A DNA stretch of 64,000 bases, taken from assembly GCF_057098645.1 (NCBI RefSeq), contig NZ_CM169472.1. One strand, given 5' to 3'. This document shows, piece by piece, positions 15,001 through 21,000 of the stretch (positions are counted from its first letter, which is position 1; every line of letters begins with the position of its first letter). Made by a program: the position numbers.

Positions 15001-18000
15001 GCTGGCCTCATTCGCACCGCCCACCCAGGCCATAAAGGCGTTTTCCACCTTTGTGATCCCGTCAGAGACCGTTTCTGGCATGGCGGCATATTCATCACGC
15101 AATGTCCCCAGCTGGCTGATTAACGCGGGCACGACTTTATCCGCCGTCAGTTGACCATCGTCCGCCATCGCCTTCAGATCTTTACGGGCCACGCCCATGC
15201 CTGCAGCCAGTGCACGAATGATCCGGTCACCACTTTCATTGACCGAATTAAATTCCTCACCGCGCAACACACCCTGTGCCAGCGCCTGGCTGAACTGGGT
15301 GATCACCGAACCCGCCTCAGCCGTACTGGCACCGGAGATTTTCAGCCCCGTGGAAATGGCCTCCGTCACCTTCAGCACATCATCAGCACTGTAACCATAT
15401 TCACGCATCGAGGCAGCCGAACGGGCAAACAGGGCCGCATTATCCGAAAAAGCGGTACCTGTCCGCTGACTGATATCCATCAGCACTTTCTGTGATGACG
15501 AAAATTCATCGGATGACTGTGATGCCTGTTTCAGACGGGCATTTACGGAACTCCACTCATCCGCCAGTGAAATCAGGTGTCCGGAGGCAAAGGCACCGGC
15601 AAATGCGCCAGCCACTCCGACAGCAGAACCGCGAATTTCCGTCAACTGGCTGTTCAGTTCTGCCAGGGCGCGTCGCTGCTCCCGGGCTGCCGCAGCGGCC
15701 TGACGCCCGCCATTTTGCAGGGTCCGGTAATATTCACTGCCCATGCTGCAAAATGGCATCTGAATCGATCGCAGTTTGGCATTCGAATCGATCATGATTT
15801 GGCATCCATCTCCGATCACAGTTTGGCATCACAATCGATCACGATTTGGCATGCTTCCGATCATTGATTGGCATCCTGCCAGTCACTCCGGGAATTAACT
15901 CTTTTCACCACAGTCTCCATTGCCGTGTTTAAACCAGTGGAGACGTCAATGTCCAGAAAGAGAAAATCCAGGAGCACTATGGAAACCTGTTTTAAGATCC
16001 TTCAGCTCAAGTTCGACAAGAAGCTGACTAACCGTTGTATCGGACTGACGTTACACATCAGCGCCTCAACCGTTTTTGAGGTTCTTGCCCGCTTCAAAGC
16101 CTCTTCTCTGTCATGGCCATTACCTGCTGATATATCCCATGACACGCTGGAGAAACTCATTTTTCCGCCCAAAGACACCTTTGCATCAGAGCTTGTAATG
16201 CCTGACATGTTGTACTTCGATACGGAAATGAGAAAACCAGGTGTGACGCGGCAACTGTTGTGGATGGAATACAAGGCACAGGCGGGTAACAAAGCGATGG
16301 GATACTCGCACTTCTGCCGTTGCTACCGGGAGTGGAAAAAAACGCGACGTCTCTCCATGCGCCAGGAGCATCGTGCCGGCGAAAAGCTTTTTATCGACTT
16401 CTGTGGTCCTACGGTTCCTGTTATTAATCCGGACACCGGTGAGATACGCCGCGTGGCAATCTTCGTGGCCGTAATGGGGGCGTCCAACTATACCTACGTT
16501 GAAGCGTGCGAAGGTCAGGACATGATGTCATGGTTAAATGCCCACAGCCGTTGCCTGACCTTCCTGGGCGGCGTACCGAAGCTGCTCATCCCCGATAACC
16601 TCAGAAGCGCAGTGAAAAAGGCCGATCGATATGAGCCTGTCATCAACGACAGTTATCAGGCACTGGCTGAGCACTATGGCACGGTTATCATCCCGGCCCG
16701 ACCACGCAAACCTAAAGATAAACCAAAAGCAGAAAACGGCGTCCTCATCGTTGAACGATGGCTTCTTGCCCGCATCCGTAATGAAACCTTCCACACGCTC
16801 AGGGCGCTGAATGCGCGCCTTAGGGAGTTACTGACAGACATGAATAACCGGCCAATGAAGGGGTACGGCAATCAAACCCGTGCAGAACGCTTCCGCATAC
16901 TGGATGCGCCAGCACTCTCTCCGCTGCCTCTGGCACCTTATGAATACACGGAATACAAAGCTGTGAAGGTTGGCCCTGACTACCACGTTGAATATGCCCG
17001 TCACTGGTACTCCGTTCCACACGAACTGGTCGGTCAGCGTCTGTCACTGAAGGCGGGGCAGTCGGTGGTACAGCTCTGGCACAAGGGGCAGTGTGTGGCG
17101 CAACATCCGCGCAGCACACATGAATATAAACACACAACCAATCCGCTTCACATGCCAGAGCGCCACCGGCAGCACGGGACATGGACACCGGAACGCCTGA
17201 TCGAGCAGGGAAAACGTACGGGCCCGTCCACAGGCCGGGTGGTTGAATCCATGCTGAAGGCAAAACCCCATCCGGAACTGGCTTATCGTGCAGTTCTGGG
17301 GCTGCTGGCACTTCAGAAAAAATACGGCCCGGAACGGCTGGAAAAGGCCTGTTACGTTGCCCTGCACTATAACGCCCCTGACAGACGCTTTATCGACAAT
17401 CTGCTGCGTCACCATCGGGAGAACCTGGAGCTTCCATTATCCCGCCAGGGCGAACAACATCCGGCATATGCTTCAGAGCATGAAAACCTGCGTGGTCCGG
17501 GCTACTACCACTGACAGAAGGAACAACAGTATGAGTGATAACCTGTTAAACAAACTGACCCAACTGAAACTCCCGGCGATGGCCGGGAGCCTGATACGGC
17601 AGCGGGAAACGCCTCAGACCTACGACGAACTGTCGTTCGAGGAAAGGCTGACGCTGCTGGTTGATGACGAGCTTCTGAGCAGGGAAAACAGCCGTGTGGC
17701 ACGGTTGAGAAAAAATGCCGGCCTGAAATACCAGGCAACACCGGAAGGGCTGCGCTATCCGGCCTCAAGAGGTCTGCGGGCTGAACAGATGAGAGAACTG
17801 CTGAACGGCCACTACATAACCCACAGGAAAAACCTGCTGATAACCGGTCCGACAGGATGTGGCAAGAGCTGGATAGCCAATGCGCTGGGCGAACAGGCAT
17901 GTCGACAGAAACACAGCGTCCGGTACTGTAGAACCGGGCGATTACTGGAACAACTGGCTCAGGGACGTGTTGATGGCAGCTGGCTGAAATATCTGAAACA

Positions 18001-21000
18001 GTTGCAAAAAATACAGGTTCTAATCCTGGACGATCTGGGGCTGGAACAGTTAAGTAACGCCCAGTGTAATGACCTTCTGGAGCTCATAGAGGATCGTTAC
18101 GGACAAAGCAGCACGATAGTGGTAAGCCAGTTCCCGGTAGATAAATGGCATGGTCTGATGGAGAACCCAACAACAGCAGATGCCATCCTGGACAGACTGG
18201 TACATAACTCACACCGAGTGGTCCTTCAGGGAGAGTCACTGAGGAAAAATCCCCCGGTAGTGGAAAGCAGCGAAAAAACGCGTTAAAAAGCGGTAGAAAA
18301 AGTTAAGTTCCCGGTTGATCGAATGGATGCGAATCGCTGATCGGACTTCGATGCCAATCCGTGATCGAATAGAGCGGAATACGCACATGCGGGAAGCACG
18401 CTGGATCTCCGACTGGAATGACTGTGAATTTGCCGAAATTTTGATAATCAGTTCACGTAACGTCGCCATTAACCTTTCTCCGGGCGCAAAAAAACCGCCT
18501 CAGCGATTCTCATCATTTATGACTGTGCTGCAAGGCTCAGCGCGTCTTCCAGCGCCGCAAACGGATCCACCTCCGGCTTGTCCTCATCCTCTCCCCAGCA
18601 GAGCATGGCGTCCTTCAGTGCAACATTCACCCCCTGCGCCCCGAAAACCGCTTTCACGATCTGCGCATTACGGATATCCCCGCGCTCATCACCCAGCGGG
18701 GATATCCTGTCGAACTCCATCCACATCATCGCCTCGCTCGCACTCAGGCTGTGCCGCAGTTCGGATAAGGTGCGCCCCAGACGGAGCGCAAGTCGCATCA
18801 GAAAGCGAATTTCCGGGCGGGCTACTTTTTTCTGGCCGACTCTGCATCAGCGATCAGGTCCAGTGCCTGACGCAGCAAGCGGGCATGTACCGGACCATAG
18901 ACGGCCAGCACCTGCTCACGGTCGTCCGGAGTGAACACCCGCTGCAGGTCCGTATCACACAGAACATCGCAGAACAGCGTCACATCCGCTTCCAGATTAC
19001 GGCGAGTTTTCGCCACCACCGACAGGGTCTCGTCACCCGCATCACCGCCATCCAGCACTTCCCGCCACAGATACCAGGCCTCTGCCGAAGGCTCCCGCAG
19101 CACCACGCTGACATTTCCCCATTCCGGCACCTTCACCGTTTTATGACGGAACCCCGACAGCCTGGCCAGTGCCAGTGTTTTCAGATCTTTTGCCATAAGC
19201 CTTATCCGCCCGCACCATTAACCGTTACCGTACACGCGTCAGAGGTAATGCTCTGCGGCTGTTCTGCAGAATCCATTACCATGCAGGTATAAGCCCCCTT
19301 ATCACCTGACTGCGCATTGGCTTTACTGAAAGTGTCAGTAGTCTGTCCCTCGACCGGCTGACCATCCTTCTTCCAGGCGTATTTATAAGGCGGCGTTCCC
19401 CCGTTGACACTGACTGACATTGTCAGCAGCGCACCTGTATTCACGGTAAGTGTCTTCTCCGGATTTTTCATAAACGCCAGCGGTACCACATAAGAAACAG
19501 GCTTACCTTTCAGTCGCAGTGAGAACGTTGCAGCCACCACGCCGTTGGTACCGGATGACCAGGTGTGCTGACGCACTTCCGCCAGGAACTTAAAGCCCTT
19601 ACCGGACGGAAACTGCACCTTAAACGCATACACCGTGTCATTATCATAGGCATCACGCAGGGCATTCTGAGCCTGATTAAGATAAAAGTTGCCCGACATG
19701 GAAATCTCGGACGATGCGCCCAGACCGTTGATATTCTCCTGCTCTGTGGAGCAGAGCGTGGTCACATCAATATCCTGTTTCTGCCCGGCGGTGAACTGGA
19801 CCTCCTTGATGGTGCAGTCCAGACGCAGATATTCCGCCTTCTCCATGGTTTCAGCAGTCGCCGGGGCAGATGAAATCATCACCTGCGTCAGCTGTGAACG
19901 TTCATACAAAGCAGACATTCTGCCTCCTGATAATAAAAAACCCGCACGCGGCGGGTTATGGGTTCTGTTGAAAAAATTACACCGTGACCTGAAATTCCAG
20001 GGTTGCACGGTAACAGCGGTTTTCCGGAATATAGCTCTGCATTTCACTGACGGATCCCGGGGCCAGCAGCATTATGGCTTCACGGGCGTCCTGACGTATC
20101 TGACGCGCCTGCGTCACAGTCCCGGCATAAACGTCTATCTGCACCGACACTGAGGACTCCGCCTGCCCGCCCATCACGTCCGCCGACACCGATGAAATCA
20201 GGCTGAAAACCACCCACGGAAGCGCCACCGACGGCCTGCCATCCAGCAGGGGGACCACATACGGGTACACCTGCCCGCCGGCAAGATGTGCCAGATGAGG
20301 ATACAAATCCGCCTCCGTCATCGTCTCAGTACCTCATCAATGGCCCGGTTCATCCGAGCAATCGCCACCTGTGCCGCCTGTTCACTGCGCACATCAAATG
20401 CCGGGCGCACAAACGGGTGCGGTGGCATATTCACGGTCCCCATTTCCACAAACCGCCAGTAGAAAGCATTGCGCGGGTTATCCGCCTTCATGGTGTTATC
20501 GCTGTTACCGGTGTCCGGATTAACACCCCGGATATGCACACCGGATTCCATCCCGCCATCGCGGGAGCACCGGGAAAGGACCACCACATTGCGGCGCAGT
20601 TTTCCCCTGCGTACCGGTGCCCGTGACACCACTTCTTCTTTCAGCACATTCGCACCCGCACGGGTTGCCTCACGCAGCACCCGGTTATTTTCCGCACCAC
20701 TCAGAAGCTGCAAATCGCGGCTGATGTCCTCCAGCCCCGAAAAATCCAGCAGGGTTTCGATCATTTTTCCCCTCCCAGCCGACAGAGAATTTCCAGACGC
20801 CCGCCGGTCGCATCCGGCACGGGCAGCCCGACAACGTTCAGGATCCGGTCACGCCATGGACCACTCAGCACATGAAGTCGTGACGCTGCCGTGATTTCCC
20901 GGCCGGACTGACCGCGCACCCAGATGCGGATTTCCGCCTGCGCCATTTCCGCACCGGACTGCATCCGCTCCCGGCTGCTCCTGCCACGGATATCCGCATG

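What the first reader, a model, noticed from the sequence alone, without database searches (positions are those of the whole stretch)
15742..18390. Tape measure gene split by an IS21-family element with a clean 5-bp target duplication
The first 28 codons of the tape measure gene (18386-18469) and the rest (12583-15741) are separated by a 2639-bp istA-istB element. CATGC is present at both junctions, and removing the IS plus one CATGC copy restores a single in-frame ~1080-codon gene. The IS termini carry several ~23-bp TGGCATC...CGATCA repeats, typical of IS21-family ends. This is a simple, probably recent insertion that should abolish tail assembly.
Basis: seen in the sequence. Interest (0 to 1): 0.5.

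Follow-up and report, generated by a model that had tools for sequence, protein, structure and literature searches.

The report
ISSso4 insertion splitting prophage tape-measure gene
A known mobile element (ISSso4, IS21 family) has recently jumped into the tail tape-measure gene of a prophage in an E. coli O145:H28-like chromosome, but other insertions and deletions had already left that prophage defective, so this is an ordinary event of little consequence.

Summary
A 2639-bp element (15747-18385, TG...CA ends, istA and istB on the + strand) lies between two CATGC copies (15742-15746 and 18386-18390). Removing it with one CATGC restores a 1080-codon minus-strand gene carrying three tape-measure Pfam domains. 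The restored junction is identical to the uninterrupted gene in E. coli O145 RM9872. The element is ISSso4. It is 100% identical over exactly 1-2639 to copies at many other E. coli sites, and 99.7% identical to the plasmid pCT copy that the literature calls ISSso4. Ten other sites show 5-bp duplications (some appear as 6-7 bp). The left end has six ~23-bp repeats and the right end three, as expected for IS21-family ends. None of 5426 complete E. coli genomes has the occupied junction and 1243 have the empty site, so the insertion is strain-specific and recent. The claimed consequence is moot. The prophage (ssrA-ypjA locus) already has gpJ cut at residue 484 of 1163 by an IS3-family element, has lost lom and the tail fibre genes, has lost its early region, and carries three more IS insertions. 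A 12-nt inverted match between the IS tip and the target was not seen at nine other sites. Verdict: real, known and ordinary.

The parts
15747..18385 (+). ISSso4 (IS21 family), complete 2639-bp copy with TG...CA termini
   Evidence: 100% identical over 1-2639 to copies at many E. coli sites. 99.7% identical to the pCT copy named ISSso4 in PMC6361801.
15742..15746 (.). Left copy of the 5-bp target-site duplication, CATGC
   Evidence: the empty site in L001 has one copy
18386..18390 (.). Right copy of the 5-bp target-site duplication, CATGC
15747..15885 (+). Left terminal region with six direct ~22-25-bp repeats (nnnTTTGGCATCnnAATCGATCA). Unit boundaries are 15747-15771, 15772-15794, 15795-15818, 15819-15841, 15842-15863 and 15864-15885. 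They are presumed IstA binding sites.
   Evidence: the repeat finder D1/D2, TRF period 23, sequence layout. The IstA-binding role is inferred from IS21-family TIR organisation (PMC10122671).
18316..18385 (-). Right terminal region with three repeats of the same motif in inverted orientation (18385-18362, 18361-18338, 18337-18316)
   Evidence: inverted pairs I1, I2 and I5-I8; layout
15979..17514 (+). istA, DDE transposase, 511 aa from the ATG behind AGGAG (the start PGAP uses in identical copies). An in-frame ATG at 15949 would give 521 aa.
   Evidence: NCBIfam transpos_IS21 284.6 bits (cutoff 160), Pfam rve and Mu-transpos_C_2; PGAP coordinates in L003-L011
17531..18286 (+). istB, AAA+ helper ATPase, 251 aa
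   Evidence: Pfam IstB_IS21 1e-60; NCBIfam IS21_help_AAA 257.8 bits (cutoff 200)
18386..18469 (-). 5' fragment of the tape-measure gene (codons 1-28) with its own start and ribosome-binding site. As it stands it reads on into the IS, giving a 77-aa stub ORF (18236-18469).
12583..15741 (-). 3' fragment of the tape-measure gene (codons 29-1080 plus stop). The frame stays open into the IS left end as far as 15819, but no obvious ribosome-binding site precedes it.
18517..19196 (-). Context: tail assembly chaperone genes G (18822-19196) and T (18517-18798), directly upstream of the tape-measure gene
   Evidence: Pfam Phage_TAC_1 and Phage_tail_T
11551..12590 (-). Context: minor tail genes M-like (12249-12590) and L (11551-12249), directly downstream
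   Evidence: Pfam Phage_min_tail and Phage_tail_L
5507..8320 (-). Context: truncated tail tip gene J (residues 1-484 of 1163) abutting a 1310-bp IS3-family element at 5507-6816. An adjacent deletion has removed the rest of J, lom and the tail fibre genes.
   Evidence: NCBIfam lambda_TipJ matches profile positions 1-484 of 1163; alignments to L001 and L002

Best explanation
A complete and probably active copy of the known IS21-family element ISSso4 transposed into codon 27-29 of the tape-measure (gpH-like) gene of a lambdoid prophage. The prophage lies at the ssrA-ypjA locus of an E. coli O145:H28-like chromosome. Transposition followed the usual IstA/IstB route: staggered 5-bp cuts in the target, joining of the TG...CA ends, and repair that duplicated CATGC. 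istAB is antisense to the phage late operon. The insertion separates the gene's start codon and ribosome-binding site (now heading a 77-aa stub) from the other 1052 codons, so no full-length tape-measure protein can be made. The event is recent and strain-specific. Its consequence for the phage is essentially nil, because the prophage was already a non-excisable, tail-defective remnant riddled with other IS elements. Shown here: structure, identity, boundaries, duplication, restoration, absence from relatives, and the other lesions. Inferred: the transposition mechanism (from IS21-family biochemistry) and the loss of tape-measure expression.
For: Boundaries, duplication and in-frame restoration. 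IstA and IstB family membership above curated cutoffs. Identical 2639-bp copies at many sites, up to 34 places per genome, on chromosomes and plasmids. The plasmid search, using the first 300 bp of the IS, found that end in Escherichia, Salmonella, Shigella and Klebsiella plasmids. Ten other sites have 5-7-bp duplications (5 bp at four, 6 bp at four, 7 bp at one; one rearranged site has only 3 bp). ISSso4 name: 99.7% identity to the pCT copy named in PMC6361801, plus the PGAP label. Multi-repeat TIRs and 5-bp duplications as IS21-family traits: PMC10122671. Empty site in 1243 genomes, best 99.9%. Occupied junction in 0 of 5426 genomes. Restored junction identical to L001, same 1080-aa length, 10 aa differences. 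Chromosomal flank 100% identical to O145:H28 strains, whose same-locus prophage has an intact tape-measure gene. Prior defects (J truncated; no int, cI, O or P; more IS elements).
Against: Nothing contradicts the structural reading. The order of events (ISSso4 before or after the J truncation) is not resolved. Loss of tape-measure expression is inferred, not measured: the 3' fragment stays in frame with ATG and GTG codons in the IS left end, so trace translation of an N-terminally altered protein cannot be formally excluded. Direct comparison with the ISfinder reference entry was not possible.
Confidence: 0.95

Rival explanations
1. The insertion was steered to this spot because the target carries a sequence resembling the IS's own tip. 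GCCATTTTGCAG (15709-15720) is the perfect reverse complement of C plus the terminal TGCAAAATGGC (15746-15757), 25 nt away. IstA would bind this pseudo-end and insert nearby.
For: A 12-nt, 100% complementary pair spans the junction (I15). The target arm is native to the tape-measure gene in uninterrupted relatives. A rough chance estimate for such a match this close to the junction is about 1e-4.
Against: Nine other independent insertion sites of the identical IS show only background-level matches to either IS end within 60 bp (7-10 of 14 positions, the same as control flanks). The pseudo-end lacks the ATC...CGATCA part of the repeat unit. One other perfect 12-nt inverted pair (I22) occurs elsewhere in the same 2.7 kb, and the pattern was noticed post hoc.
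Confidence: 0.03
2. The junctions are an assembly artefact: a repeat-induced misjoin placed an IS copy inside the tape-measure gene.
For: IS elements are classic sources of misassembly. The window holds six IS copies. No other genome shows this junction.
Against: A misjoin would not create a perfect 5-bp duplication flanking exact IS termini. Nor would it leave a target that closes up base-for-base to the native gene.
Confidence: 0.01
3. The insertion is old and inherited, not recent.
For: The prophage is an old remnant shared by the O145:H28 lineage.
Against: The junction is absent from all 5426 complete genomes. These include O145:H28 strains whose neighbouring 18.8 kb is 100% identical. The IS has zero differences from copies in unrelated strains, the duplication is perfect, and the split gene has accumulated no further stops or frameshifts.
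Confidence: 0.04

Closest known systems
ISSso4 (IS21 family; first named from Shigella sonnei; e.g. the copy in E. coli plasmid pCT, NC_014477.1 41986-44624)
   Same: Same length (2639 bp) and same ends, with 99.7% identity to the pCT copy and 100% identity to many E. coli copies. Same istA-istB organisation and the same 5-6-bp duplications.
   Different: Only the insertion site differs. This junction is not present in any of 5426 complete E. coli genomes.
Prototype IS21 and IS5376 (IstA transposase plus IstB AAA+ regulator)
   Same: Two-gene layout, DDE transposase with an IstB helper, TG...CA ends, terminal regions built of repeated IstA-site-like units, and a 5-bp duplication (PMC10122671).
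   Different: It is longer. It has more terminal repeats (six left, three right) than the L1/L2 and R1/R2 of the prototypes described in PMC10122671. This is a property of ISSso4 in general, not of this copy.
Lambda gpH-type tape-measure genes of EHEC lambdoid prophages (e.g. WP_106873583.1 in O145 RM9872)
   Same: The restored gene is 1080 aa, the same length, with 10 amino-acid differences. It has the same G/T upstream and M/L downstream neighbours.
   Different: Here the gene is interrupted after codon 28.
IS-mediated decay of prophages in EHEC (IS629-type insertions and deletions)
   Same: The same prophage carries three 1310-bp IS3-family copies associated with deletions, plus an IS2 and an IS110-family element.
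   Different: ISSso4 is not among the IS annotated in the two comparison prophages fetched here (L001 and L002). Its identical copies in the listed hits are mostly in poultry-associated E. coli and on plasmids.

Membership tests
IS21 family insertion sequence | istA encoding a DDE transposase of the IS21 type | tested here: met
   NCBIfam NF033546 transpos_IS21 284.6 bits (cutoff 160); Pfam rve and Mu-transpos_C_2
IS21 family insertion sequence | istB immediately downstream, encoding an AAA+ helper ATPase | tested here: met
   NF038214 IS21_help_AAA 257.8 bits (cutoff 200); PF01695 1e-60. istB starts 17 nt after the istA stop.
IS21 family insertion sequence | Terminal inverted repeats ending 5'-TG...CA-3' and built of multiple repeated units | tested here: met
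   TGCAAAATGG...GAATACGCA, with six left and three right ~23-bp units. The family trait is as described in PMC10122671.
IS21 family insertion sequence | Short target-site duplication (typically 5 bp) | tested here: met
   CATGC on both sides here. At 10 other sites of the same IS the duplication is 5 bp at four, 6 bp at four and 7 bp at one, with one rearranged site.
IS21 family insertion sequence | Transposition activity | not testable with these tools
   Only indirect evidence: identical copies at many sites, up to 34 places in one genome.
ISSso4 (named element) | At least 95% nucleotide identity over full length to the named element | tested here: met
   99.7% over 2639 bp to the pCT copy, which PMC6361801 names ISSso4; PGAP labels IstB 'ISSso4 family'. 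The ISfinder reference entry itself could not be consulted.
Siphovirus tail tape-measure protein (lambda gpH type) | Tape-measure domains, length of about 1000 aa, and position between the tail chaperones G/T and the minor tail proteins M/L | tested here: met
   PF20155, PF06120 and PF09718 on the restored protein; neighbouring genes; intact 1080-aa homologues annotated as tape-measure protein

The most novel reading that the evidence does not exclude
ISSso4 can be drawn to targets that carry a sequence resembling its own tip. Under this reading, the 12-nt inverted copy of the IS end lying 25 nt from this insertion reflects pseudo-end capture by IstA, not coincidence.
Probability: 0.03. Interest if true: 0.35.

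Novelty: already known. Interest (0 to 1): 0.08.

Why it matters
It matters little. The insertion is a clean, datable marker that could help strain typing or outbreak tracing within O145:H28-like E. coli. It is also one more example of IS-driven decay of EHEC prophages. It shows that ISSso4, whose identical copies in the listed hits are mostly in poultry-associated E. coli and on plasmids, has been active in this chromosome. It does not change the expected phage phenotype, because the prophage was already unable to excise or to build a tail tip.

Tried and rejected
1. Target steering by an IS-end-like sequence. I fetched nine other insertion sites of the identical IS. I scored both IS ends and the repeat unit against 120 bp around each site, and against control flanks. 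Only background matches appeared, so the idea is rejected as a general rule.

2. A search for the occupied junction in complete E. coli genomes found none. The source strain is therefore not in that collection, and no sister strain with the insertion could be examined.

3. Polar termination inside the IS on the phage-sense strand. Five terminator-like sites were found against 3.8 +/- 2.1 in shuffles, and no promoter-like sites. This was uninformative.

4. Re-initiation of the 3' tape-measure fragment. In-frame ATG and GTG codons exist in the IS left end, but none has a convincing Shine-Dalgarno sequence. This was not pursued.

5. Literature on ISSso4. The papers only record its presence. No length or target data were found, so I made the sequence comparison with pCT instead.
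Full report
**Observation**

I read 15600-18600 and performed the excision in silico.
- CATGC lies at 15742-15746 and again at 18386-18390. The bases outside these pentamers differ (C vs A on the left, T vs G on the right), so the duplication is exactly 5 bp.
- Between them are 2639 bp that start TGCAAAATGG and end GAATACGCA.
- Removing 15747-18390 produces a single minus-strand ORF of 3243 nt: 1080 codons with one terminal stop.

**What the interrupted gene is**

The restored protein hits Pfam TMP_3 (8.7e-58), Phage_HK97_TLTM (1.3e-90) and Tape_meas_lam_C (1.7e-17). 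Its neighbours are in lambda tail-gene order:
- Upstream: the tail tube gene, the tail assembly chaperone G (Phage_TAC_1) and T (Phage_tail_T).
- Downstream: an M-like minor tail gene, L, an Arc/Ant insert, K, I and J.

**What the inserted element is**
- ORF1 (15979-17514, or from 15949) scores 284.6 bits on NCBIfam transpos_IS21 (cutoff 160). It also carries the rve and Mu-transposase C-terminal domains.
- ORF2 (17531-18286) scores 257.8 bits on IS21_help_AAA (cutoff 200) and 1e-60 on Pfam IstB_IS21.
- The whole 2639 bp, positions 1 to 2639, is 100% identical to copies at many different places in complete E. coli genomes. These are on chromosomes and plasmids, with up to 34 places in one genome. 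PGAP labels their IstB 'IS21-like element ISSso4 family'.
- A search with the first 300 bp of the IS shows that end is common on plasmids of Escherichia, Salmonella, Shigella and Klebsiella.
- Plasmid pCT carries an element that PMC6361801 names ISSso4. I fetched pCT. Its copy is 2639 bp with the same ends and 7 mismatches, which is 99.7% identity. The element is therefore ISSso4. The ISfinder entry itself could not be consulted.

**Ends and duplication**
- The left end consists of six direct units of 22-25 bp (15747-15885, consensus nnnTTTGGCATCnnAATCGATCA).
- The right end has three such units in inverted orientation (18316-18385).
- PMC10122671 describes IS21-family terminal inverted repeats as built of multiple repeats (L1/L2, R1/R2), and reports 5-bp direct repeats.
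- I fetched nine other insertion sites of the identical IS, plus pCT. The flanking duplications are 5 bp at four sites, 6 bp at four and 7 bp at one, which is compatible with chance extension of a 5-bp duplication. One rearranged site has only 3 bp.

**Empty and occupied sites**
- A 1200-nt query made by in-silico excision matches 1243 of 5426 complete E. coli genomes over at least 80% of its length. The best matches are 99.9% identical, in O145:H28 strains, where it is annotated as an uninterrupted tape-measure gene.
- In O145 RM9872 (L001) the tape-measure gene is also 1080 codons. It differs at 10 residues, and across the insertion point it reads exactly as my restored sequence, with a single GCATG.
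- A 1000-nt query spanning the left junction finds no genome that covers it.
- The chromosomal flank 45199-64000 (ypjA, gabD, gabP and others) is 100% identical to several O145:H28 genomes.
- In one of them, RM8988-C1, the prophage at the same ssrA-ypjA locus has an intact tape-measure gene.
- The insertion is therefore strain-specific. With a perfect duplication, an IS with zero differences from copies elsewhere, and no secondary damage to the split gene, it is recent.

**Consequence**

As it stands, the gene's start codon and ribosome-binding site head a 77-aa stub (18236-18469). The remaining 1052 codons have no evident initiation signal, although the frame stays open into the IS left end. 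A tape-measure protein is essential for siphovirus tail assembly (established knowledge for lambda gpH). In an intact phage this insertion would therefore block tail formation.

This prophage is not intact:
- J matches only positions 1-484 of the 1163-position lambda_TipJ profile. It runs into a 1310-bp IS3-family element at 5507-6816.
- Relative to L002, the rest of J, lom and the tail fibre genes are deleted.
- At the other end, a second copy of that IS (43886-45198) abuts a truncated ypjA. Judged by alignment to the annotated same-locus prophage L002, no integrase, repressor or replication genes lie between the Q region and ypjA. The window's own ORFs there were not all domain-searched.
- Further insertions are an IS2 (1943-3272), an IS110-family element (28743-30191) and a third IS3-family copy (32917-34229).

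The functional claim is therefore correct in principle but adds nothing here.

**A lead that failed**

The repeat finder showed that the target sequence GCCATTTTGCAG (15709-15720) is a perfect inverted copy of C plus the IS tip TGCAAAATGGC (15746-15757). This 12-mer is native to the tape-measure gene. If IstA were attracted to pseudo-ends, other sites should show the same pattern. Nine other sites show only background-level matches to either IS end or to the repeat unit. I treat the match as a coincidence and give the steering idea about 3%.

**Verdict**

This is a real, precisely described and recent insertion of a known IS (ISSso4) into a tape-measure gene of an already decayed EHEC-type prophage. 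Only the site is new. Interest is low.

Noticed in passing
window 15709-15757: The target 12-mer GCCATTTTGCAG is a perfect inverted copy of C plus the ISSso4 tip (TGCAAAATGGC), 25 nt from the insertion point. Nine other ISSso4 sites lack anything similar.
   Followed up: yes
window 5507-6816, 32917-34229, 43886-45198: Three copies of a 1310-bp IS3-family element; the IS629-like name is from memory and was not tested. The first and third copies are 100% identical to each other, and the middle one is 97.5% identical to them. Relative to same-locus relatives, the first and third border deletions: the J C-terminus, lom and tail fibre genes on one side, and the prophage early region plus part of ypjA on the other.
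   Followed up: partly
window 28743-30191: A roughly 1449-bp insertion lies between the terminase small-subunit gene and the HNH endonuclease gene. It encodes a 398-aa IS110-family (RNA-guided type) transposase, NCBIfam 239 bits. It is absent from both comparison prophages (L001 and L002).
   Followed up: partly
window 1943-3272: An IS2 insertion (TnpB matches PRK09409 at 722 bits) lies just downstream of ssrA and the DinI-like gene. It is absent from RM8988-C1 at the same locus.
   Followed up: partly
window 21911-22503: A 162-bp tandem repeat (3.7 copies, 91% matches, equivalent to 54-aa units) lies inside the 405-aa ORF just downstream of the portal gene. PGAP calls this region a 'frameshifted portal' in relatives.
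   Followed up: no
window 746-1108: The tmRNA gene ssrA (tag peptide ANDENYALAA) marks the prophage attachment side. smpB lies just upstream at 49-531.
   Followed up: partly
E. coli genomes, one search hits H52-H65: Many E. coli chromosomes carry a fragment about 98.5% identical to ISSso4 positions ~1-500 (left end and 5' part of istA), truncated next to a tetratricopeptide-repeat gene. It looks like an old, fixed remnant of a related element.
   Followed up: no
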